This document shows positions 40,881 through 59,446 of a DNA stretch of 64,000 nt, piece after piece. The stretch's first letter is position 1; each line of letters opens with the position of its first letter. The DNA is from Naegleria gruberi (lineage: Eukaryota), in NCBI GenBank assembly GCA_000004985.1, contig GG738847.1. The stretch is one strand, 5' to 3'. The notes below the pieces were generated by a model. The model was not told the DNA's origin. It did not search any database and saw nothing but the letters and a program-made list of their open reading frames with translations. The translations under genes were made by a program, and so were the position numbers.

Positions 40881-42302
40881 TTACCATTCCAAAGATCTTT
40901 TGGATAGAGATTTCAAAGTTGGACTATTTTCAGAGTAGAATTGCGAATACCATCTTCTAAATTGACCTATTGGTCCATCAGTTCTCACCAACACTGGCTT
41001 TGGAAGATAGGTTTTGGTATTCCAAATTGGAATGTCTTGTTCCACAAAGGAGGTCATCAAGATTAAAAACCACTTGGCAAAGAATCTAGGAATATACCAA
41101 GGAACATAGAGAACATGTTCAACATGTTGATGAAGAGGGCCAACTGGAGTTACGGTCTGAACGAGATCAAACTTTCCTAAAATTGTAGAAAACTCAAACA
41201 TGACCAAACCAGGTCCATATTGACCTCCCTTTACATCCACAACACTGAATGGAATTTTCAACCTATCATTCATGGCAGTTGAAACGTGTTGAACTTGAAA
41301 GTAAGCCACATGGGAATCTTCCTTCTTTTCACCTTTTTGCCACTTGGCTCCCCAAATATTCCACACAAATCCAAAAGTATTTCTCATTTCTCTATGGACA
41401 ACATTTAAATGATTGGCATCTGGTCCATTCTCTGGAATTTCCTGAATATGACAATAGATGTGATGAGCAATCTTTCCATGTGTGAAGAGATTTTGTCTTA
41501 CTGATGGTGGTTGCCAATGAGGTTCACGACCCTCTGCATCAAACCACAAATAGACGTTATCATTTCTTTCAATAATTGTATAACTCTTGGTGTGGGCTTG
41601 TGATGGAATGCCATCTCTATGTTCACACTCTTCCACTTGTTCACAAGATTCAGCCAATTTTCCACTCTTGTTTTTTGCAATATCAAGAGTTGAATCTTGA
41701 ACAGATAGCTCACTTTTGAATTGACCATTCTTTTTCAAAATTGGCATTGGAAGTGGAGAATCACCAACGGAAACACATTTTCCCTCTCCATTGAATGACC
41801 AATGATGAAATGGACATGTCAAACATTCACCATTGACACTTCCCAATGACAGATTAGCTCCCAAATGAGTACAGTAAGCATCGATAGCATGAACTGTTTT
41901 GGAATGTTGAGCTCTATAGACAGCTAGTTCTAGACCTAACATGCTCTTGTAGATTACTTGTCCAGGGGAAAGATCCCATGAATTGCAGATTTTGAACCAT
42001 CCATTTGGATAAACTGGTGGAAAGTCACCAATTCTCTTTCTACTCTTGGAAGCCAAGAAGGAAGTTCTGGTGGATGGTTTCATTTCGGAAAGTTTAGGTT
42101 CAAGATCAATGAATCTATCAAGAGGATGAAAGAATGAAGAGTAAACTTCCGAAATCAAACTCTTTAATAATTTCCATACAATTGCAAGCACAATAATTGA
42201 AACTCCCAATATGCAAATGTTATTAAAGCTTGTAATATTTTCCACATCAATTGATTGATAAATTTTGGAAAGTGACTGATGGAAGAGAGTTTCGTCTTGC
42301 AT
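40881..42302 (-). CDS. Rieske [2Fe-2S] non-heme-iron oxygenase, Neverland/DAF-36-like (putative sterol C7-desaturase)
   Basis: 473 aa; ATG at 42302. N-terminal TM helix ICILGVSIIVLAIVWKLL. Rieske motif CTHLGANLSLG...CPFHHW. Mononuclear-iron motif D-A-N-H-L-N-V-V-H. Confidence 0.7.
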   Translation of the reverse strand: MQDETLFHQSLSKIYQSIDVENITSFNNICILGVSIIVLAIVWKLLKSLISEVYSSFFHPLDRFIDLEPKLSEMKPSTRTSFLASKSRKRIGDFPPVYPNGWFKICNSWDLSPGQVIYKSMLGLELAVYRAQHSKTVHAIDAYCTHLGANLSLGSVNGECLTCPFHHWSFNGEGKCVSVGDSPLPMPILKKNGQFKSELSVQDSTLDIAKNKSGKLAESCEQVEECEHRDGIPSQAHTKSYTIIERNDNVYLWFDAEGREPHWQPPSVRQNLFTHGKIAHHIYCHIQEIPENGPDANHLNVVHREMRNTFGFVWNIWGAKWQKGEKKEDSHVAYFQVQHVSTAMNDRLKIPFSVVDVKGGQYGPGLVMFEFSTILGKFDLVQTVTPVGPLHQHVEHVLYVPWYIPRFFAKWFLILMTSFVEQDIPIWNTKTYLPKPVLVRTDGPIGQFRRWYSQFYSENSPTLKSLSKRSLEW

Positions 42303-42558: not shown

Positions 42559-43161
42559 ATGTCTCAAAACCTTCTCACGGCTGCCACTACCATGAACAAT
42601 CACGAAGAAGAGCTTGAAGTTCCAGGCTTTTCATGGATTATAGAATCGGAATTGGCTGGTATGAAATTTCCATCCCTTCCCGAACATTACAAAAATTTAA
42701 ATCATCATCACATTGGTTTGGTGATTTGTGTGAATGAGAGGGTAGCTTCCTTTGTTGAACAATTACCTCATTCAGAATATTTTAATTTAATTTCTAAAAA
42801 ATTACAAAAAATAGAAAATTGTGAAGAATTTACTTATAATGTTGGAAAATTGAATATTGCTCATTTTCCTATTAATGATTATGGAGTTCCTAATATGGAA
42901 TTAATGAATGAAATGATAAAATTGGTAGAATATGTGAGAAAGGTGGATTCGAACAGGGGAATTGTTGTGCATTGCATGGCTGGACTTTCTAGGACTGGAA
43001 TGATTCTGGCATGTTTGTTGGTGAGAGTATGGAAAATGACATTTGAGGAGTCAATCAAGTTGGTCAATCAGAAGAGAGGAAGAAATGGTAGAGGAGTAAT
43101 GACTAGCAAGCAAGAAGCATTTGTGGAAGATTTTTCAAAGACTATTCCTAATATTCAATAA
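42559..43161 (+). CDS. Dual-specificity protein phosphatase (small DUSP, DUSP23-like)
   Basis: ATG at 42559 (aaaaaaaATGtct). Catalytic loop VVHCMAGLSRTGMILACLLV. Confidence 0.75.
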   Translation: MSQNLLTAATTMNNHEEELEVPGFSWIIESELAGMKFPSLPEHYKNLNHHHIGLVICVNERVASFVEQLPHSEYFNLISKKLQKIENCEEFTYNVGKLNIAHFPINDYGVPNMELMNEMIKLVEYVRKVDSNRGIVVHCMAGLSRTGMILACLLVRVWKMTFEESIKLVNQKRGRNGRGVMTSKQEAFVEDFSKTIPNIQ

Positions 43162-45868: not shown

Positions 45869-47965
45869 TTAATATCTGCTAATAAAAAGCCATGCATTTG
45901 GTTCTTTACCAGTTATAACACAAACATCCCCAGACTCAATTTTAGGGAATCTATCCACAAGATGTTGGTTAGACAATTCTGAAAATTTTGAATATCCTCT
46001 AAATTCAGCATTTGTTTTCTTGTAAAAATCCTCTTCCACTTCATGAATCCTATCCCACAACTCTTCACTAATATGGATTGGAGCAACAACATGCCAGAAT
46101 GGCGAATTAGTAATTGTCTTGGCATTGTATTCCATTTGTTGCTTTTTTCTCATCTTTGGATCTGTGCTTTGTAAGTTTTGTTTGAATTTTTCGTTAAAGG
46201 TTGAAATTAATTCTTCCATAGATTGAGCTTTTACAATTTGCACTCTATTCAAAATTGATTCCTTCAAATGTGAATCTTCCTTATCTAGTAGAGAACTGAT
46301 CATTTCGAAATTGACTTCATTGGCAGGAATTGTAGATTTCTTCAAACTATTTCTTCCCTTGATTGTAATGGTACTTCCTTCCAACTCTTGTTTTCCAATT
46401 GATACTACAAGTGAAACTCCTTTACTCTCCCACTGATAGAACTTTTCCACATTCTTGGTTGCATATCTCATATCGGCATGAACTCTAAAACCAAATGATT
46501 TGAGTTTCTTCTCCATGCTCCTCACATTCTCATACAATATATTGGTATCACAAGATTTACTGAGCATTGGAACAATAACTATTTGATACTTGTTCATGGT
46601 AGAGTGCAGTCTCAACCCCTTGTCATCTGAGCATGAAGCTGCACAAGCTCCAAGAATTCTAGAAGATATATTGCCACAAGTTTGAAAAATTGGCTGAACA
46701 AATATTTGAGATCAATACATGTTGTGAAAAATGTGAATAACTTACAGAAGTGAAATTATCTTGTTTCAATCTATACACGATATTGTACACATCTGAAAAT
46801 ATCCTTCCATAATACTTTCATTAAATGAAACAAATTAAAGTAGAATTCACTTGAAACAACTTACATTAGTTCTTGCAATATTTACACTAGTATTTACAAA
46901 AGGTAGACTCACATCAAACACAATGGCTTGTTTACAATGTGAGAATGCCTTCCAAGGGAAGAGATGATAGCTAATACCATTCCACAAATTACAAACATTC
47001 AATAGAACTGGAAGGTAAACTCTATTCCACATTATGTCATTCATATAAGAAAGAGCATTCTCCTCTGATTCGTGACAGGTATGAATTTCATGCTGATATT
47101 GCTCCTTATTTCCATAAAACAATGGCAATTGAATTCCCTCATCACTCATTACTTGTTGAAAATTCTTTGTCTTACAAATCACCTTATATGGTAACTGAAT
47201 ATAACTCCTTATAATATTCTTAAGGTATGGGAAGATAGCCCACTCACTATTTGGTTTCAAATAAACATTTGGATAATTAAACTTCATTTCATAATCCTCA
47301 TAAATATATCCTCTACTAAGTGAAAACAATTTAGGATCCATCACATGTTGAAATGCATTGACATTGAATAATGAATTTGTTTCCTTAACCTCTTCCATTA
47401 TACTATCAACTTCAACTTGTGATGATTCATTCCACTCTGGTTCTTCATAATCATCAAATCTAACCAATGGATCAGCACCCAATTCCATCATGGCCGAATT
47501 ATTATTATTACTATTATTCATCAATTGTTGTTGATATTCTTCACCATCTTCCTGTTGTTGACTTCTTGGATTTGGATTACTATTTGATAAGGGTTGATCT
47601 CTCAAACTAACCAGCATGGGTAAATCAATCCTCTCCAATTTCTTCTCTTCTATGGCTCCGATCATTGTCTTTTGTGAGGAGGTTATTCCTTCATCCTTAT
47701 TAGAGGAGGAATCTTGATCGGAAGAGGTTTTCAGAATTTCATCAATTAATTTGGCCTTTTCCAAAGCTTCCTCCTCATCAAATCTTTCATCCACTTTGCC
47801 AAATAATTTATCCATCAATTCAAGTGCCTGTTCCTTCCAAATGATGTGTCCATCGAGTGAGTATCGTTCATCCACAAAATTCAAAATCATTGGAGAGGTA
47901 CTCCACTCCTGAAGCCAAGCTTGAAATTGTGTTAGCTCGACGGTGGTTATTCCTTGAGAAGACAT
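45869..47965 (-). CDS. Divergent prolyl-tRNA synthetase paralog (eukaryote/archaeal-type ProRS architecture); 2 exons; catalytic motif 2 and Zn-binding Cys degenerate
   Basis: Exon 1 is 46865..47965 (ATG at 47965; ends ...VNIARTN|GTAAGT). Intron is ~46694..46864. Exon 2 is 45869..46693 (PIFQTCGNISSRILGACAASCSDDKGLRL..., anticodon-binding domain FRVHADMRYATKNVEKFYQWESKGVSLVVSIGKQEL, C-terminal domain ending ...WLFISRY*). This aligns to human ProRS along catalytic, anticodon-binding and C-terminal domains. Motif 2 reads VMSDEGIQLPLFYGNKEQYQHEIHTCHES (canonical [27 protein letters not shown]). The canonical C-terminal CxC...C Zn ligands are absent (canonical CVCGKNPAKYYTLFGRSY). Confidence 0.7.
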
Positions 47966-49185: not shown

Positions 49186-50067
49186 TCAATTATGACTTCC
49201 CCAAAAGAAAGTATTTCTCATCTTTTGTAATTTTTCTAATGCACCACTACATGTTCTTCCAATTTCTGTTTGTGTATCATTAATTCGTCTTAAAATAGAG
49301 TACATGTTTAGTATTTCCTCCGTTATATCACCAATAACTTTCATGTCTACATATAATTGATCGAACCACTTTCTGGCCTTTTCCTTGTTGATATTATTTT
49401 CTTCATCGTTCTTTAATATTGAAGTCATGTAAATGGATGTCAGGGACACCAGATAGGGTGGATATTTTAGAACCACCTCCGAATAGAAGCTATCATTCAC
49501 AATATTCCAACAAATCTGATACAGAGATTTATCAAGTTCTGCATCCTTTACATAGGTCATGAGGGAAGTATGAGAGTGAAAAACTGTTAAATTAAAATTC
49601 AATTGTTCCATTAAATATAATTCACATTCCAAAATTTGTTGTAGTGGGTAAGGAAAAAGTGTGGTAACATCCTTTGTATCATAATTTTGTGATGATGGTG
49701 TTTCCTTCCCCAAACATATTTGATGTATATTCTTAGCATTGAGTGGACATTCTTCGATTTTACTTGCCAACAACAATGCTGCAGCTCCCAGCAAGGCAGG
49801 ATCACAATCGGAAATACTATTCTGACAATAAAATCGTTTAAAATACACCATTGCTGTTGAAACTACTCTCAGATGGCCACCCACTTTCTTTCCAATATCT
49901 TTTAAATTTTTAATAGTACTCATCAAAATTAATTGTTTTTCCAAGGGAGAAAATTGTGCATCGGGATCGGATGTATCAAGCTGCTGAAGGGATGTTTGTG
50001 GTTGATTCGAAGAAGCTTGCTGCTGTTGTTTTTTAGATAATTGTGTTTGTATCCATTTGCTAATCAT
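49186..50067 (-). CDS. Cyclin C (Mediator CDK8-module cyclin)
   Basis: Start taken at MISKWIQTQ (ATG ~50067). The track extends upstream from a GTG through low-complexity sequence. Cyclin box with HLRVVSTAMVYFKRFY...LLASKIEE (cyclin C signature). TGA at 49186. Confidence 0.75.
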   Translation of the reverse strand: MISKWIQTQLSKKQQQQASSNQPQTSLQQLDTSDPDAQFSPLEKQLILMSTIKNLKDIGKKVGGHLRVVSTAMVYFKRFYCQNSISDCDPALLGAAALLLASKIEECPLNAKNIHQICLGKETPSSQNYDTKDVTTLFPYPLQQILECELYLMEQLNFNLTVFHSHTSLMTYVKDAELDKSLYQICWNIVNDSFYSEVVLKYPPYLVSLTSIYMTSILKNDEENNINKEKARKWFDQLYVDMKVIGDITEEILNMYSILRRINDTQTEIGRTCSGALEKLQKMRNTFFWGSHN

Positions 50068-50358
50068 GTCATTATTTCCAATAGTAATAATAATAATATT
50101 AATAATACAATAATGTTGTTTGTTATGACGATGATGGCCAACAAAATATTCAACACAATAGTAGAACATCAACAATACATCACACACGAGAAAATAAAAA
50201 CACTTCTCCTCCGATAATGTAATTTTTGATTTCTACTTACTATTGTGATGAAACCCAATAATTGTCCATTTTTTTGTATTTTTAGAATTATTAATAAATA
50301 GTATTATCATTTGTAAATTCTTATTGTTAACGTTAACAAGATTTGTTGTTATTGATCA

Positions 50359-50649: not shown

Positions 50650-50748
50650 TTCAATTGGAGTTTGTTCTCTAACGAAGAAATTGACCTTCTTATGATTACC
50701 ATACATATCTATTAATGTTTGATTCTTCAAAAGCATTTGAAAAAAAAA

Positions 50749-52086
50749 ATGAAGAGAAAATATGAAGAAGATTTGCCACAAGAACAACATGATGAAGAAG
50801 TTTCCGTGTTGGCAACCCAAGAGGAGGAAGGAGTAATTTCATTACAAACACAATCATTGGAATCGACGTCGGAAGAGTTTCCAATTGTTGCCACTCAAGA
50901 GTTTGAGCAAAGTGCTCAACAACAATCTTTGAATACTCAGGATAGTTCGAGCCAAGTAGGAGATGTTATTAGTGGATTACAAACACAATCGGAAGTCGTT
51001 GAGAAGACTAGTAAGAAGTGGAAGTTTGAAAATAATTCAACAAGCAAGGATTCTAGCTTTGGAAATTATAAGAATTATTATTCATACAGGTACAATGATG
51101 TGAATGCTGCCAAACCAAAGGAAGATAGGCACTTGATTGATCCAAGATTGGAAATAATTTCAAATTGTTTAACGAATTACTTCAAAAATTCCACGGAGTC
51201 ACCAATTAACCTCAATTGTTTAGATATTGGATGTAATCAAGGGTTATTTTCAATGCAAATGGCTGACTTTTATGAATCCCAACTTGGTGTAAAGGCTGAG
51301 AAAGAAATTTCCTTGAAAAATATGAATGCAATCGATATTGATTCAGTACTAATTAGAAAAGCAAAGGATCATTTAATTAATTTGAAGAGATTCAATGCTA
51401 CAGAGAAGGATCAAGATGAGGACGACAAACTTGGCATGAGTGTTCATACTTATGTGGCTTTACATCGAGCAGAGACTCCAGAGGAAAAGGAAGAGAAAAT
51501 TTTCATCTGGAGAAATAATAGAAAATTATTGAAAGAACATTTGGACAATTCTGTGAATATTTGCCACAAATCCTACATGAATACTCTAATCGATAAGGTA
51601 CATTTCAAGGTGCAGAATTTCGTAGAAGAAATTGTAGAAACAAAGATTTCTGACTTAACAATTGAAAAGATGCAGGAAATTATTTCAAAATCAACAAACA
51701 AGACTCAGGCCACATTTAATATCATTTCTTGCTTGAGTGTAACAAAATGGGTTCACCTTAATTATGGAGATAATTCTGTAAAATTCCTATTCCACAAAAT
51801 TCACAAGCTACTCAAGCCTGGAGGAATATTCATTTTAGAACCTCAACACTGGAAAAGCTACACAAAAAAGAGAGAACTCAACTCTAAAATTCAGGAAAAC
51901 TTTAAACACATCAAATTCAGACCAACAAGCTTTCACGATTATTTGTTGAAGGAAGTTGGCTTTACTTCTAGTGAAACCTTTTTCATTGATGAAAATTCCA
52001 CTGAGACACCAACAGGAAACAAGGAAAATGAAAAAAAGAAGAAGAAGGGATTTAAGAAACGTCCAATAGTTTTTTACTATCGTTGA
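50749..52086 (+). CDS. MEPCE: 7SK snRNA methylphosphate capping enzyme / Bin3-family RNA methyltransferase
   Basis: ATG at 50749 (aaaaaaaaATGaag). SAM-binding CLDIGCNQGLFSMQMA. Bin3 C-terminal signature VTKWVHLNYGDNSVKFLFHKIHKLLKPGGIFILEPQHWKSY. Confidence 0.8.
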   Translation: MKRKYEEDLPQEQHDEEVSVLATQEEEGVISLQTQSLESTSEEFPIVATQEFEQSAQQQSLNTQDSSSQVGDVISGLQTQSEVVEKTSKKWKFENNSTSKDSSFGNYKNYYSYRYNDVNAAKPKEDRHLIDPRLEIISNCLTNYFKNSTESPINLNCLDIGCNQGLFSMQMADFYESQLGVKAEKEISLKNMNAIDIDSVLIRKAKDHLINLKRFNATEKDQDEDDKLGMSVHTYVALHRAETPEEKEEKIFIWRNNRKLLKEHLDNSVNICHKSYMNTLIDKVHFKVQNFVEEIVETKISDLTIEKMQEIISKSTNKTQATFNIISCLSVTKWVHLNYGDNSVKFLFHKIHKLLKPGGIFILEPQHWKSYTKKRELNSKIQENFKHIKFRPTSFHDYLLKEVGFTSSETFFIDENSTETPTGNKENEKKKKKGFKKRPIVFYYR

Positions 52087-54721: not shown

Positions 54722-57700
54722 TTAAAGCTCTGATAAGCCCATCGATAATCGCACCAACTTTCTCAATTTTCCATAAAATTGGTCTAATTTTTCAGAATCA
54801 ATACTGTTGGCATCTGTTGCTGAATAGAATTGTTCTTCTCGCTGTCTGATATATGCAGATACATTATATCTAAGGAGAAGTCTGTCAGATTCATCAAGTG
54901 ACTCTTCTTCATCTGAGTCAGAGGTTGAAAGTGTTGAATATGTTGAACAACCATTACCAATTAAATGTTTGAGGTTTTTCAATAATAAAAAGAAAGATGC
55001 ATCTCTAACTCCCCATATGACCAATAAACTTGGTAAGATACATAATGAAATAGCAATTAGAGCTACCAAATAAAACAATGAATAATCTCCCAATACTAGG
55101 AAAACTCTCCACAATCTTCCTTCCAAATGTCCCAAATTTCCTCCCAAAAACGACATGCTATTAACAATAAGGAATACACAAATACTTAATCCCATTATAA
55201 CAGTTGATAATCTCAGATTTAGTAAAGAAGGGGATGGTTTTTGAGTGATACCAGGATGGAATTTTACATGATTACACCTTTCCATTATCATAACTGTTAG
55301 ATATTGTACAGAAACAATAATAAAAATCATCAAACTATTAATATGCTCCAAATCATTTTTAAATTTCCCAAATCTAGATATTTCAATATTTAGAGAATTT
55401 TCATGAAAATTTTGAGGTCTACTCAAAATATTGGCTCCATAATAACCAATTCCAAAGCAAGTGAATAATACAATAATAAAACCTTGATAGGCAGCATTCA
55501 AAAACCATAAAAATAAGCTGGTTTGTGTTAAGGTTTCTCCTCTTCTGGAGGATCTGTATAGCTCTGGAATCTTTTCTAGAGCCATATCAGAAACTTCAAA
55601 TGAATGTCCATTATTAGCACTTCCCAATTTAAGTGAAGCTGGAGTAATGTACCGTATTAAATCTCCAATTCTCACATCCCCCATAGAAAATGCAAATGGC
55701 ACAACACTAGTATAAAGGATGTTATAAAAAACCAGAGAATGGGATTGTAAAATAGTATTTCCACTGAAATAGGTGAAAAGTAAATTATAAACAAGCTGGC
55801 ATGCAGCCAAAACAACTGATTTGTACATGGTGTACTGTGAAATGAGAGCCAATCTCTTGTAACTGTTTCTTCCATGCACAAGTAAGAGACGTTTCAACAT
55901 ACTAAATCTTGGAATGCCAAAATCAGCTGCTCTAACAGCCTGTAAATGTTCTGACTCTGTATTGACCTCTTGATGAGTTTCTTGATCTATTTTGGCACTC
56001 GAACTGATACCAATACCAACATCTGCCTCTAGAATCATGTTACAATCATTTCCACCATCTCCAATAGCCAAACAAATTGGAGAGGAGAGCGATTGAAGTC
56101 TATTGTTGGAATCTTCTGAGGAGAGCGGATATTTAATGAGTCTGACAATCTTTCCTTTCAATTTGGGAGTCATTCTGCAGCTAACACATGCATTCACTGA
56201 TTTGCAAAGCTTTAAAAAAGTTGAAACATTCTCCAAATCTGTTGACTCTTGTTCATCCAATATGAAATTCAATACTCTTCCTTCAAATACTAAACATTTG
56301 AAAATATTAGATTCCAATTCATCGTATTTTTCTGAAATTATTCTCAGAGAATCTCTAACAGAGGAGAAGGAATTTCCTTTCAGATGGGATATATCGATTA
56401 AATCTTGATGTAATGAAGGAACCAGATGACAGGCATGAGCAATTTGTACAGCTGTTTCCATCTTGTCACCTGTGAGCATCCAAATAGAGATTCCAGCCTC
56501 TCTCAAGCTATCAATACACTCACCAACTCCTTCTTGAAGTTTATCTTCCATAGCAGTGGCTCCATGTAACAGAAACTCCTTCTCTATTGAATCGACAATT
56601 GGTTGTTGTTCTCCTTCTTCCATTTGTGAAATTGTTTCCAGGAAAGTGGTGACTTCCTCCATAGCAAGCTCTTTACCAGCCATAAGCATTACTCTAAGTC
56701 CTTCTTTCGAGGCAAGATTCTGAATGTGACTCAAGGTTTCTTGTAGTATTTCAGCATTTGCTTGATTGTTCATCCTCTCACAAATAACATCATCTGCTCC
56801 CTTACAGAAAATATAATATTTACACTGGTTTGGATCGTCAGATATTCTTTTTACAATTATGGACATTCTTCTTCTATCTGAAGTGAAGTGAATTACTTTC
56901 AATATATTATATTCCTCCAAAGTAAAATTATTAGCATCTGAATGGATTCTCAAAATCATTCTTTCCTCATCTCTGTAATTTAAAACAACTCCTTGATATG
57001 CTGCATATTTGACAAAGGCATCCTCTTCGGGCGAGCTCGATCTGTAATGTGGCAAGAAGGATCCACTTGTTGAATTGTCGCAATAAACTGTATGGCAAAG
57101 GGCCAAATTTCTCAGGAAGGACAATGTGCTCTCTGTAAAATTACATTGCTCATTGAGGAAACCAATTTTGTGAGTATTTATGCTGGTAGGATGATGAGAA
57201 ACTGAGGCATCAACAACCTTTCCATCAACAATAACTCTAGAGAGTGTCAATAAATTCTCTGTTAGGGTACCTGTCTTGTCACTGAAAATGTAATCTATTT
57301 GACCCAAGTCCTCTGCTACAGAAGTATTGGATGCACTAGTTCTATTCCCCTGAGCATCACATAAAAGGTCATCTTTTGGTATGAAAAACATTGAGATAAT
57401 GTACTTGGCTACATCTGACGTGATTTTCAAAGATTGTGGAATCATTAGAGAGCATAACATGGTAAATCTCAGAGGTATGATTAGGTAAGGCAATATCTTT
57501 TCAGCAAAATATTCAAGCACATCAAGAATGTAGTAACCAGTGACAAGCTTGGAATGTTGAAAATCTACGGCCGTATTAAGATAAAACATATTCTTTCCAT
57601 TATTAAAATAGAGATAATTGCCAATTAATCCAAAGGCCAATCCAATAGAAAACTGGACAATAAAAATTCCAACTACTACATGGTTGATAAAGTTATCCAT

Positions 57701-59446
57701 CTTGGTCCATTTCATTTCAACTTCCTTTCTATTCATTCCAATTTTTGTTTCATTTCCAGTATAAATTACTACAGCCAAAGCAGATGCGGTACTTTTCAAT
57801 GTTGTGCCTTGTAATAGTAAATTATTAGATGTGACTGAAAACCTGTCCATTCTATTCTTGTAGGGTACGATTATTTCACCTTTGAAATGATCCAAATCTG
57901 CATTAGGAGCATTACATTCAATAATACATGAAAAGTCATTTACCATTGATACTTCACTTTCACCACTGGAGGTAGTTAAAAGTTTCTGGATTGCACCAAT
58001 AGATTTCTTCTCCTTGTAGTGAGATTCTCCATCGAGAGCACTTGTTTCCACCCAGGCAATACCACCTGTTACTGTGGAAAAGCCTTCTTTTTTCAGGACA
58101 TTGCTTGAATGAATGAGAACCATATCAGCTCTAATCTGTTCATCATCTTGCAGATAGACAATATCTCCTGCTTGTAGTTGATAGGAAGGAATTGTTTCAG
58201 TTTTTCCATGTCTGATAATTGTCACTAATTTGCTATTAATTTCAGAGTCCTTCTGATATCTAAACAAATCATCCACTAGCTCCTTAGCTACTCCGACTGT
58301 CACGACCAATATTAAGGGAATCCACGTCGTACTTTAAAATTATGTTAAGAATGTTTCTAACTTTTTGAACTCTTATACTCACATTGGATTAGTTGGACTG
58401 GCAGCTTTCCAAAACTGAAGACAGGCCAATGCCAAAAAGTACTGATTCATTCTTAATGAAAATTGAGCACTAATACTCTTCCACAAGAAGTTGTACCATC
58501 TATACTTAGTATTACTAATTGTATTGTCAGAATATCTGGGATAATTAAAATTTCGTTCTCTTGAAAATTCTTTCCTTATTTGAATGGCTTCAGTCAATTC
58601 CTGTAAAGAATGGTATTGTTCAGAAAAGATAAATTTCCAAAAGTAATCAATTAATTCTTGCCAAAACCTTTCGAACATGGCTCTACTTTGAAACATTCCC
58701 AGTGCTGTTCTATATACAGATGCTGTTGCATGACCAGTGCTGGAATTTGCTGATGAAGTCGAAGACCTATCGTCCAATAATACAATTTGTGAATATTCAT
58801 TACATGAACAACTCGAATAAATTAAAGATCCAACTATATAAATTACATTCTTTACACAAATATTAACCAAAATATTTGTGACTTGATAAATTATTAAACA
58901 TATTAAACTTGTTATATACATTAACATTGTTTTTTGCTTGGCAAATGATTTTGCAAAATTTACAATTCTTCTTCTACCATTATTTACAGAGGGAGCAATT
59001 ACCTGATCATGATAATGTTCATGTATCAGCTGTTCCCTCTCAAAACAATGTGATTCTACATTTCCATAAATTATTCTTCGTTTTCCTTTTTGTTCCGAAT
59101 CAAATTCCTCCATAACAAGTACTGACGATGGTTGTATTTGTTCATAATCATCAGAATAATTAATATTTGACTCATCGCCATTGTTAGAAATTTCCTCTTC
59201 CTGATAATAGGCAATCTCTCCTCCTGATAATGATGAAGATGGACTTGACACCTCTTTCATAGTAGATGAACGATCTTTTCCATCATCCCGATCATCTTCC
59301 AATGTTTTACTATTATTTATTGTTGATGATGTTAATGTTGATGGATAACTATTCTCATCATCGTCATTGTTGGATGATTTCCATCCTCCTTTACTGGCTG
59401 CCACTGATGTTCGAGAGAGAATGGTTCCTCCACCATTTGTATTCAT
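54722..59446 (-). CDS. P4-type ATPase (phospholipid flippase); 2 exons, ~1,557 aa
   Basis: Exon 1 is 58383..59446 (ATG aaaaaaaATGaat; NTISNTKYRWYNFLWKSISAQFSLRMNQYFLALACLQFWKAASPTNP; donor AT|GTGAGT). Intron is 58332..58382. Exon 2 is 54722..58331 (TTWIPLILVVTVGVAKELVDD...DKTGTLTEN...GDGGNDCNMILEADVGIGI). Confidence 0.8.

What the first reader, a model, noticed from the sequence alone, without database searches (positions are those of the whole stretch)
45869..47965. Degenerate prolyl-tRNA-synthetase paralog, a candidate pseudo-synthetase
The two-exon gene aligns to eukaryote/archaeal-type ProRS across the catalytic core, the anticodon-binding domain (FRVHADMRYATKNVEKFYQWESKGVSL vs [27 protein letters not shown]) and the C-terminal domain that ends in the conserved Tyr (...WLFISRY*). 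The class II motif 2 invariant arginine(s) are replaced (VMSDEGIQLPLFYGNKEQY vs [19 protein letters not shown]). The C-terminal Zn-ligand cysteines are absent. A ~200-aa non-homologous low-complexity N-terminal extension is present. The protein is unlikely to aminoacylate. It could be a repurposed tRNA- or proline-binding regulator, as several aaRS paralogs are.
Basis: partly seen in the sequence, partly recalled or inferred. Interest (0 to 1): 0.65.

Follow-up and report, generated by a model that had tools for sequence, protein, structure and literature searches.

The report
Conserved dead ProRS paralog of Naegleria
This Naegleria gene encodes a full-length copy of the enzyme that loads proline onto tRNA; the residues needed for the chemistry are gone, yet the protein is kept under selection in several species, so it is most likely a repurposed non-enzymatic protein whose role is unknown.

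Summary

**Gene model.** It has three exons, not two. The "171-nt intron" is a 50-nt intron, a conserved 69-nt exon and a 52-nt intron, giving 664 aa. The new exon does not restore motif 2.

**Architecture.** The protein is collinear with E-type ProRS from residue 1 to the terminal Tyr. The "N-terminal extension" is the normal ProRS N-terminus plus two internal insertions.

**Active site.**
- Both invariant motif-2 arginines are missing: the segment 268-285 has no Lys or Arg in any ortholog.
- The Thr of RPTSE is replaced.
- Pfam's class II core model does not detect the protein.

**Conservation.** Intact orthologs with the same exon structure occur in N. fowleri, N. lovaniensis and two metagenome contigs. 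dN/dS is about 0.16. The remodelled catalytic core is among the most conserved parts.

**Distribution and origin.** Nothing closer than ordinary ProRS exists among 1.84 billion representative proteins. Naegleria has a separate canonical ProRS (PDB 6NAB). The paralog descends from a different, archaeal-like ProRS subgroup.

**Verdict.** A lineage-specific pseudo-synthetase, a new variant of a known kind, with its function inferred only.

The parts
46865..47965 (-). Exon 1 (aa 1-367), from the start ATG at 47965-47963. Encodes the ProRS N-terminus, two insertions, motif-1-like strand and the remodelled catalytic core.
   Evidence: ORF list and splice search. The donor GTAAGT follows codon 367. 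Aligns to N. fowleri, N. lovaniensis and L001 orthologs.
46815..46864 (-). Intron 1, 50 nt, GTAAGT...AAG
   Evidence: An intron at the same position is annotated in N. fowleri (91 nt) and N. lovaniensis (114 nt) and is present in L001 and L004.
46746..46814 (-). Exon 2, 69 nt (aa 368-390, YYGRIFSDVYNIVYRLKQDNFTS). Corresponds to the ProRS segment 'xLGQxFSKxFxIxY' between the TSH loop and motif 3.
   Evidence: A 69-nt exon at the same position occurs in all five genomic copies.
46694..46745 (-). Intron 2, 52 nt, GTAAGT...CAG
   Evidence: The only indel between the window and the 97%-identical contig L004 within the gene falls in this intron.
45869..46693 (-). Exon 3 (aa 391-664 plus stop TAA at 45869-45871). 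[quoted passage not shown]
47777..47965 (-). aa 1-63: N-terminal segment homologous to the ProRS N-terminus (FQAWLQ...DERYSLDG...IWKE against FSEWY...DNRYPVKG...)
   Evidence: hmmsearch with a 72-sequence ProRS profile: profile positions 10-66, E 1e-7 to 1e-10 per ortholog. hhalign. MAFFT.
47654..47776 (-). aa 64-104: insertion 1, absent from ProRS. Modelled as a helical hairpin in the N. fowleri ortholog.
   Evidence: Gap in the ProRS rows. AF2 helices 42-77 and 88-99 with block pLDDT of about 90 in P0002.
47561..47653 (-). aa 105-135: motif-1-like strand (KKLERIDLPMLVS against xxKxQFPLLIP) followed by the paralog-specific RDQPLxNxNPxPRS. The most constrained segment of the protein.
   Evidence: 65% of columns are invariant in 4 species; dN/dS is 0.03 for N. 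fowleri against N. lovaniensis. Alignment.
47351..47560 (-). aa 136-205: insertion 2. Acidic, low-complexity and predicted disordered. Carries a conserved DP[FL]xxFDD[YF]x[DE]P motif. Replaces the ProRS active-site lid (KExxHxxGF).
   Evidence: pLDDT below 50 for 118-202 of P0002. 18 D+E against 3 K+R. dN/dS 0.40. Alignments.
46865..47350 (-). aa 206-367: remodelled class II catalytic core (KPNSE for RPTSE; motif 2; EIHTCH; FPWxxFSHC; ARTN for the xxxH/TSH loop)
   Evidence: 52% of columns are invariant in 4 species; dN/dS 0.095. No Pfam tRNA-synt_2b hit.
47111..47164 (-). aa 268-285, NFQQVMSDEGIQLPLFYG: the motif-2 strand-loop that should hold both invariant arginines. It has no Lys or Arg.
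   Evidence: 0 K/R in all five orthologs. In 72 ProRS both arginines are 100% conserved.
46589..46693 (-). aa 391-425: motif 3 region (FQTCGNISSRILGAC...DDKG). The motif-3 Arg is kept; the motif-3 Gly is replaced.
46313..46585 (-). aa 427-517: anticodon-binding domain (HGTP_anticodon)
   Evidence: Pfam 3.9e-11, 43 bits against a cutoff of 21. 7 of 10 ProRS-invariant columns are kept.
45872..46303 (-). aa 521-664: ProRS C-terminal domain with a paralog-specific insertion (STDPKxRKKxQxE[FY]...). Contains AEFRGY and CxITGxxxNxW and ends in Arg-Tyr.
   Evidence: hhalign to the end of ProRS. Pfam ProRS-C_1 is only 14 bits, below the cutoff of 31.5. Motifs are shared with archaeal-like protist ProRS.

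Best explanation
The locus encodes a 664-aa, three-exon, full-length derivative of an E-type (eukaryote/archaeon-like) prolyl-tRNA synthetase. It has lost the ability to make prolyl-adenylate and has been kept as a non-catalytic protein in Naegleria.

**Shown**
- It has the ProRS architecture from N-terminus to terminal Tyr.
- The ATP- and proline-contacting residues are replaced.
- Purifying selection acts on the whole protein, most strongly on the motif-1-like segment and the remodelled core.
- It is restricted to Naegleria-like organisms.
- A separate canonical ProRS coexists in the genus.

**Inferred mechanism**
- The protein still folds like ProRS.
- It uses its retained anticodon-binding and C-terminal domains to bind tRNA(Pro). 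E-type ProRS recognise this tRNA mainly through anticodon bases G35 and G36.
- Its new surfaces engage partner proteins. These are a helical hairpin, a disordered acidic insertion with a conserved short motif, and a remodelled pocket.
- It would therefore act as an adaptor, sensor or regulator linked to tRNA(Pro) or proline status, not as an enzyme.
For: **ProRS architecture**
- hhalign gives E=1.7e-51, collinear over 1-664 against 1-479 of 480.
- The AF2 model of the N. fowleri ortholog has pLDDT 81 and pTM 0.82. Its best PDB matches are full-length ProRS: 1NJ1 with target TM-score 0.92, 3IAL 0.85, 6NAB 0.81.

**Loss of catalytic residues**
- Residues lost: motif-2 Arg, motif-2-loop Arg, RPTSE Thr, motif-3 Gly.
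- Residues kept: motif-3 Arg, several Glu/His, 7 of 10 invariant columns of the anticodon-binding domain, the terminal Tyr.
- No tRNA-synt_2b hit in three orthologs, against 5e-31 for the closest functional relative.

**Selection and conservation**
- Five intact copies share an identical exon structure.
- dN/dS is 0.16 for N. fowleri against N. lovaniensis, and 0.26 for the window against L004.
- By region, dN/dS is 0.095 for the core, 0.03 for the motif-1-like segment and 0.40 for insertion 2.

**Distribution and context**
- In 1.84 billion representative proteins, only five ortholog clusters reach E<=1.6e-43. The next hit is ordinary ProRS at 4.7e-34.
- Canonical N. fowleri ProRS has been crystallised with Pro and AMP (PMC7990177).
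Against: - No expression, binding or activity data exist.
- tRNA binding is inferred only from domain retention. One ProRS-invariant Arg of the anticodon-binding domain (GVPxR) is replaced by Val/Ile.
- The very strong conservation of the remodelled pocket would fit a new ligand or a new activity as well as a scaffold.
- The AF2 model was built on an alignment dominated by true ProRS, so its ProRS-like fold is partly imposed.
- The canonical ProRS was shown for N. fowleri, not for the organism of this window.
Confidence: 0.55

Rival explanations
1. Neofunctionalised enzyme or ligand sensor. The class II pocket was rebuilt to bind a different small molecule or to catalyse a different reaction, as in the aaRS paralogs AsnA and PoxA, or as in HisZ for allosteric ligand binding.
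For: The remodelled catalytic core is among the most conserved parts of the protein: 52% of columns are invariant across 4 species and dN/dS is 0.095. A merely vestigial pocket would be expected to drift. Several pocket residues are kept: Glu of RPTSE, the E..E.H strand, Phe204, the motif-3 Arg.
Against: All known catalytic class II paralogs keep the motif-2 Arg for ATP. Here both arginines and the adenine-stacking Phe are gone. No candidate ligand or reaction can be derived from the sequence. The His/Cys cluster (HTCH) that looked new is shared with functional relatives.
Confidence: 0.2
2. Obligate non-catalytic subunit of a heterodimer with the canonical ProRS. The analogy is SLIMP with mitochondrial SerRS2, where one subunit has an ablated active site.
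For: Class II ProRS are dimers built on motif 1. The motif-1-like segment is the most constrained part of the paralog, with dN/dS 0.03. A precedent exists in PMC10570016 and PMC9437257.
Against: N. fowleri canonical ProRS crystallises as a complete homodimer with substrates bound. The paralog comes from a different ProRS subgroup from the canonical enzyme, which makes a conserved heterodimer interface less likely. No complex prediction could be run.
Confidence: 0.12
3. It is still a working ProRS, for example an organellar one, with an unorthodox active site.
For: [quoted passage not shown]
Against: The motif-2 Arg, invariant in all 72 ProRS compared, has no basic substitute anywhere in the segment. 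The RPTSE Thr and the lid helix are replaced. The N-terminus has 0-1 basic and 2-4 acidic residues in its first 30 aa, unlike a mitochondrial presequence (the reading of this composition rests on general knowledge).
Confidence: 0.05
4. A decaying duplicate (pseudogene) or a gene-model artefact.
For: The published automatic calls truncate it at the first intron (P0001, P0004).
Against: Five intact reading frames have conserved splice sites and a conserved terminus. dN/dS is well below 1. The corrected model changes nothing in motif 2.
Confidence: 0.03

Closest known systems
E-type (eukaryote/archaeon-like) prolyl-tRNA synthetase, archaeal-like subgroup (M. thermautotrophicus 1NJ1, Giardia 3IAL, and protist enzymes such as Barthelona P0013, Paramoeba P0014, P0009/P0162)
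   Same: The domain order and fold match end to end. Subgroup signatures are shared: D-x-R-Y-x-x-x-G near the N-terminus, P-x-W-x-x-F, HTCH, YYSKTF, AE[FI]RGY and C[IF]I[TSK]G...W near the C-terminus. There is a terminal aromatic residue.
   Different: The motif-2 arginines, the RPTSE Thr, the lid helix and the motif-3 Gly are replaced. Two insertions of about 40 and 80 aa and a third in the C-terminal domain are present. It is not detected by Pfam tRNA-synt_2b.
Canonical Naegleria ProRS (N. fowleri NF0061610, PDB 6NAB/6UYH)
   Same: Same genus and same overall architecture. The anticodon-binding domains are about 30-36% identical (72-80 bits). Both lack the four Zn-ligand cysteines.
   Different: The canonical enzyme has all catalytic motifs and binds Pro and AMP. 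It belongs to the human-like subgroup. The paralog's N-terminus and catalytic domain match it far worse (25-30 bits or none) than they match archaeal-like protist ProRS (50-60 bits).
[quoted passage not shown]
   Same: A full-length class II aaRS paralog with an ablated active site. It is kept under selection and still binds the cognate tRNA (PMC9437257; PMC10570016).
   Different: SLIMP derives from SerRS, is mitochondrial, and is shown to heterodimerise with SerRS2 and bind LON. None of this is known here.
HisZ and the HisRS-like domain of GCN2
   Same: Class IIa synthetase folds that lost adenylation and became regulatory: an allosteric subunit in one case, an uncharged-tRNA sensor in the other (HisZ; GCN2: my own knowledge).
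   Different: Their parent enzyme is different. HisZ lacks the anticodon-binding domain. GCN2's domain is fused to a kinase. The Naegleria protein is stand-alone and full-length.
ProRSx of Streptomyces
   Same: The only ProRS paralog listed in the 2022 review of aaRS duplications.
   Different: ProRSx is a bacterial P-type, catalytically active enzyme paired with a special tRNA. The Naegleria protein is E-type and lacks the catalytic residues.

Membership tests
Functional E-type prolyl-tRNA synthetase (EC 6.1.1.15) | Class II catalytic fold followed by a class IIa anticodon-binding domain and the ProRS C-terminal domain, in that order | tested here: met
   hhalign 1-664 against 1-479 of 480, E=1.7e-51. 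AF2 plus Foldseek: target TM-score 0.92 to 1NJ1 and 0.81 to 6NAB.
Functional E-type prolyl-tRNA synthetase (EC 6.1.1.15) | Motif 2 invariant Arg (fRxE) and the motif-2-loop Arg that hold ATP | tested here: not met
   Both are 100% conserved in 72 ProRS and replaced by S/N and G. There is no K or R in aa 268-285 of any ortholog.
Functional E-type prolyl-tRNA synthetase (EC 6.1.1.15) | Motif 3 Arg | tested here: met
   R402 is kept in all orthologs. The neighbouring motif-3 Gly is replaced.
Functional E-type prolyl-tRNA synthetase (EC 6.1.1.15) | Proline-pocket residues: RPTSE Thr and Glu, and the His of the (T)SH loop | tested here: not met
   The sequence is KPNSE (Thr to Asn, Glu kept). The loop His becomes Asn in 3 of 4 species. 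The assignment of these residues to proline binding rests on published ProRS structures recalled from memory.
Functional E-type prolyl-tRNA synthetase (EC 6.1.1.15) | Match to Pfam tRNA-synt_2b (PF00587) above the gathering score | tested here: not met
   No hit at E<=0.1 for the window protein, P0002 or P0003. P0009 scores 108.6 bits.
Functional E-type prolyl-tRNA synthetase (EC 6.1.1.15) | HGTP_anticodon domain | tested here: met
   43-46 bits against a cutoff of 21.
Functional E-type prolyl-tRNA synthetase (EC 6.1.1.15) | C-terminal extension domain ending in a conserved Tyr | tested here: inconclusive
   The terminal Tyr and subgroup motifs are present, and hhalign reaches the last residue. 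Pfam ProRS-C_1 is only 14 bits against a cutoff of 31.5. The Zn ligands are absent, but also absent in functional relatives.
Functional E-type prolyl-tRNA synthetase (EC 6.1.1.15) | Prolyl-adenylate formation and charging of tRNA(Pro) | not testable with these tools
   Needs biochemistry.
aaRS-derived pseudo-synthetases (SLIMP, HisZ, GCN2 HisRS-like domain) | Descent from a synthetase with the fold retained but catalytic residues lost | tested here: met
aaRS-derived pseudo-synthetases (SLIMP, HisZ, GCN2 HisRS-like domain) | Maintained by purifying selection alongside an active synthetase for the same amino acid | tested here: met
   dN/dS 0.16. A canonical ProRS is present in N. fowleri. It was not verified for the organism of the window itself.
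aaRS-derived pseudo-synthetases (SLIMP, HisZ, GCN2 HisRS-like domain) | Demonstrated non-catalytic function (tRNA binding, partner regulation) | not testable with these tools
   No data. No paper in the searched library mentions the N. fowleri or N. lovaniensis locus tags.

The most novel reading that the evidence does not exclude
The protein is not a passive relic but a new functional class of ProRS-fold protein. It would be an archaeal-like ProRS lineage kept in Naegleria only as a rebuilt ligand- or tRNA(Pro)-sensing module. Its frozen, arginine-free pocket and conserved acidic linear motif would couple proline or tRNA(Pro) status to a partner pathway. That would be the first ProRS-derived regulatory pseudo-synthetase.
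Probability: 0.2. Interest if true: 0.7.

Novelty: new variant of a known kind. Interest (0 to 1): 0.5.

Why it matters
Catalytically dead synthetase paralogs such as HisZ, SLIMP and the GCN2 HisRS-like domain have each revealed a regulatory link between translation and another pathway. None derived from ProRS is listed in the 2022 review of aaRS duplications, and none turned up in my literature searches.

This one is full-length and strongly constrained exactly where the chemistry was lost. It is confined to Naegleria, a genus that includes the lethal pathogen N. fowleri. It also descends from a ProRS subgroup different from the host's working enzyme, which bears on how the two ProRS subgroups were distributed among early eukaryotes.

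In practice, the public annotations call it 'hypothetical' or 'anticodon-binding domain-containing', or cut it at the first intron. The corrected three-exon model is directly usable.

Tried and rejected
- **Two-exon model.** Rejected. A 69-nt exon lies inside the supposed intron.
- **Extra exon restoring motif 2.** No. It lies between the TSH loop and motif 3.
- **Non-homologous N-terminal extension.** Rejected.
- **New His/Cys metal site in the pocket (HTCH + SHC).** Dropped. HTCH occurs in functional relatives, and the His of SHC is Tyr in L001. No model coordinates were available to measure distances.
- **Giant-virus origin.** Naegleriavirus packages a ProRS, but two checks gave no support. 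The contigs of the closest functional relatives (P0009, P0162) carry a cullin and a Ras-like GTPase, so they are from a compact AT-rich eukaryote. A pattern scan of viral contigs found no relative.
  - The third homolog search did not return the Naegleria canonical ProRS. Its sequence was recovered from a PDB alignment with a chimeric query.
  - afdb50 was unavailable.
  - One alignment was too diverse for a loci scan.
  - The metagenome contig scan found no further orthologs.
- **Phylogeny.** The NJ tree places the paralogs beside P0009 and P0016, which appear on the sister side in 55-65% of 100 bootstrap replicates, at distances of about 1.8-2.3 substitutions per site. Long-branch attraction cannot be excluded.
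Full report
**Organism and locus.** The window is AT-rich (about 33% G+C) and eukaryotic. The gene's product has 47-50% identical orthologs annotated in Naegleria fowleri (FDP41_012020, 677 aa) and N. lovaniensis (C9374_012015, 679 aa). A 97% identical copy lies on an ENA metagenome contig. The window therefore comes from a Naegleria of the gruberi type. The gene lies on the minus strand between 47965 (ATG) and 45869.

**Gene model.** However, the Naegleria orthologs carry 23 extra residues exactly at that junction.

The 171 nt contain a second GTAAGT and an internal acceptor. Read as 50-nt intron, 69-nt exon and 52-nt intron, they encode YYGRIFSDVYNIVYRLKQDNFTS, which aligns with YYSKVFSEVYNIQYPVKFGNQIA of N. 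fowleri.
- The annotated N. fowleri and N. lovaniensis genes have a 69-nt middle exon at the same position.
- The same exon is present in two metagenome contigs, L001 and L004.

The corrected product is 664 aa. This exon corresponds to the ProRS segment between the TSH loop and motif 3, so it does not touch motif 2.

**Is it ProRS-like, and how much of it?**
- Pfam finds only HGTP_anticodon (about 4e-11) and a sub-threshold ProRS-C_1 (14 bits against a cutoff of 31.5). It finds no class II core, in either gene model or in the orthologs.
- phmmer against PDB finds ProRS only, at 3e-18 to 1e-6.
- A profile of four orthologs aligned to a profile of 72 ProRS gives probability 100% and E=1.7e-51. 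The alignment runs from residue 1 to 664 against 1-479 of 480.
- The first 63 residues on their own match ProRS profile positions 10-66, with E 1e-7 to 1e-10.
- A motif-1-like strand follows at about 105-121.

The '200-aa N-terminal extension' is therefore the ordinary N-terminus interrupted by two insertions.
- Insertion 1 (about 64-104) is modelled as a helical hairpin.
- Insertion 2 (about 136-205) is acidic and predicted disordered. It replaces the active-site lid.
- A third insertion sits in the C-terminal domain.

The AlphaFold2 model of the N. fowleri ortholog (pLDDT 81, pTM 0.82) matches full-length ProRS structures best. Target TM-scores are 0.92 for 1NJ1, 0.85 for Giardia 3IAL and 0.81 for N. 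fowleri 6NAB. The input alignment was mostly true ProRS, so this model is supportive rather than independent evidence.

**Active site.** I listed the columns at least 85% conserved in 72 ProRS and read off the paralog residues.

| ProRS feature | State in the paralog |
|---|---|
| Motif-2 Arg (100% conserved) | lost, to S/N |
| Motif-2-loop Arg (100% conserved) | lost, to G |
| Thr of RPTSE | lost, to N |
| Arg of RPTSE | changed to K, as in the closest functional relatives |
| Gly-Ala after the pocket Phe | lost, to H/Y-C |
| Motif-3 Gly | lost |
| Glu of RPTSE | kept |
| Three Glu and the His of the motif-2 region (fRxE, REF, E-x-H) | kept (the fRxE Glu is Asp in two species) |
| Pocket Phe | kept |
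| Motif-3 Arg | kept |
| DxxG after motif 3 | kept |
| Invariant columns of the anticodon-binding domain | 7 of 10 kept |
| One C-terminal Cys and the terminal Tyr | kept |

Two aligners place the motif-2 segment differently. This does not matter, because NFQQVMSDEGIQLPLFYG (268-285) contains no Lys or Arg in any of the five orthologs. By established knowledge of class II synthetases, the motif-2 Arg is indispensable for adenylate formation, so aminoacylation is very unlikely.

The missing Zn-ligand cysteines, by contrast, say nothing. I recovered the sequence of the functional N. fowleri ProRS from a PDB alignment. It lacks all four, as do the closest functional relatives.

**Not a pseudogene.** Five genomic copies are intact, share both intron positions and end in Arg-Tyr.

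| Comparison or region | dN/dS |
|---|---|
| N. fowleri vs N. lovaniensis, whole gene (dS 0.91) | 0.16 |
| Window vs L004 (11 synonymous, 12 non-synonymous changes) | 0.26 |
| Motif-1-like segment 105-135 (65% invariant in four species) | 0.03 |
| Motif-3 region 390-425 (42% invariant) | 0.08 |
| Remodelled catalytic core 206-366 (52% invariant) | 0.095 |
| N-terminus, insertion 1, exon 2, anticodon-binding and C-terminal domains | 0.13-0.16 |
| Insertion 2 | 0.40 |

The whole-gene values are and the regional ones (N. fowleri vs N. lovaniensis). The degenerate pocket is thus frozen rather than drifting. This is the most informative and least expected result.

**Distribution.** A profile search of 1.84 billion representative proteins returns only the ortholog clusters: P0002, P0001, the two halves P0004 and P0007 of L001, and a 131-aa fragment P0008. 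All reach E<=1.6e-43. The next hit is ordinary ProRS at 4.7e-34. Pattern scans of viral and metagenome contigs added nothing. The family appears confined to Naegleria and very close relatives.

**A canonical ProRS exists.** N. fowleri NF0061610 was crystallised as a homodimer with proline and AMP, and with halofuginone and AMPPNP (6NAB, 6UYH). It is 54% identical to human ProRS (PMC7990177). Its sequence has all the motifs. I could not check the genome of the window's own organism.

**Origin.** The paralog is not an obvious copy of that enzyme.
- Domain-wise BLAST shows that its N-terminus and catalytic domain match archaeal-like ProRS of protists best (P0162, P0009, P0164, P0163, P0034), at 50-60 bits. 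The N. fowleri canonical enzyme scores 25-30 bits or nothing. The anticodon-binding domain scores alike against all.
- It shares subgroup signatures with the archaeal-like group: D-x-R-Y, P-x-W-x-x-F, HTCH, YYSKTF, AE[FI]RGY, C[IF]I[TSK]G..W.
- That group includes Barthelona and Paramoeba sequences and structurally Giardia ProRS.
- The closest functional relatives, P0009 and P0162, sit on compact 27% G+C contigs next to a cullin and a Ras-like GTPase. They are therefore eukaryotic, not viral.
- In an NJ tree the paralogs attach beside P0009 and P0016, which appear on the sister side in 55% and 65% of 100 bootstrap replicates. The distances are about 1.8-2.3 substitutions per site, so the placement is tentative.

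**Mechanism.**
- Shown: the ProRS architecture, the loss of catalytic residues, selection on the protein, lineage restriction, and coexistence with a working ProRS.
- Inferred: the protein no longer activates proline. It retains the modules that E-type ProRS use to recognise tRNA(Pro), mainly through anticodon G35/G36 (PMC12152171). It has also gained surfaces for partners: a helical hairpin, an acidic disordered linker with a conserved DP[FL]xxFDD[YF]x[DE]P motif, and a rebuilt pocket.
- My reading: I favour a non-catalytic tRNA(Pro)- or partner-binding adaptor or regulator (0.55).
- Rivals:
  - a new ligand or activity in the conserved pocket (0.2);
  - a SLIMP-like heterodimer with the canonical ProRS (0.12; precedent in PMC10570016 and PMC9437257);
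  - residual ProRS activity (0.05);
  - a pseudogene or artefact (0.03).

**Comparison with what is known.** It works like the aaRS-derived pseudo-synthetases SLIMP, HisZ and the GCN2 HisRS-like domain. It fails the membership tests of a functional ProRS on the motif-2 arginines, the proline-pocket residues and the Pfam core. It passes on fold, anticodon-binding domain, motif-3 Arg and terminal Tyr.

The 2022 review of synthetase duplications lists only the active bacterial ProRSx under ProRS. No paper in the searched library mentions the N. fowleri or N. lovaniensis locus tags. I rate it a new variant of a known kind, of moderate interest (0.5). It is a clean, conserved, lineage-specific case with one unusual property, a strongly constrained dead pocket, but there is no functional evidence.

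Noticed in passing
PDB 6NAB sequence recovered (not in the window): The functional N. fowleri ProRS has none of the four Zn-ligand cysteines in its C-terminal domain (IPWHESKAAEEY...; EEAHKKPNCWALFGRSY). The literature nonetheless describes the E-type C-terminal extension as zinc-binding. The archaeal-like protist ProRS keep only one Cys.
   Followed up: partly
P0016 (EukProt 'gene12206-5793_t', 472 aa): An archaeal-like ProRS from an unnamed eukaryote. RPTSE is replaced by KTNNDI and the TSH-loop His by Asn, but the motif-2 arginines are kept. It groups with the Naegleria paralogs in the NJ tree. It may be a second, independent degenerate ProRS paralog.
   Followed up: no
window 47351-47560 (aa 136-205) and 45872-46303: Two conserved short motifs lie inside otherwise variable insertions. 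One is DP[FL]xxFDD[YF]x[DE]P in the acidic disordered insertion. The other is STDPKxRKKxQxE[FY] in the C-terminal domain; it is basic and could be a nuclear localisation signal. Neither could be assigned.
   Followed up: no
window 40881-42302 (-): A 473-aa ORF with Rieske [2Fe-2S] (7e-20) and KshA_C (8e-27) domains. It is a Rieske-type sterol/steroid oxygenase-like protein.
   Followed up: partly
window 50719-52086 (+): A 455-aa ORF with a Bin3/MePCE-type methyltransferase domain (3.6e-34).
   Followed up: partly
window 42559-43161 (+) and 49186-50187 (-): A dual-specificity phosphatase (DSPc 2.7e-12) and a cyclin (Cyclin_N 1.2e-13) flank the locus. There is no evident functional link to the ProRS paralog, and the neighbours differ in N. 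fowleri, N. lovaniensis and L001.
   Followed up: partly
window 54722-58309 (-): A 1195-aa ORF that looks by eye like a P-type ATPase (DKTGTLT, GDGxND motifs). It was not scanned.
   Followed up: no
L005 and L006 (Logan contigs of P0162 and P0009): The closest functional relatives of the paralog come from an unidentified eukaryote. Its DNA is very compact and apparently intron-less at 26-27% G+C, and the ProRS lies next to a cullin and a Ras-like GTPase.
   Followed up: partly
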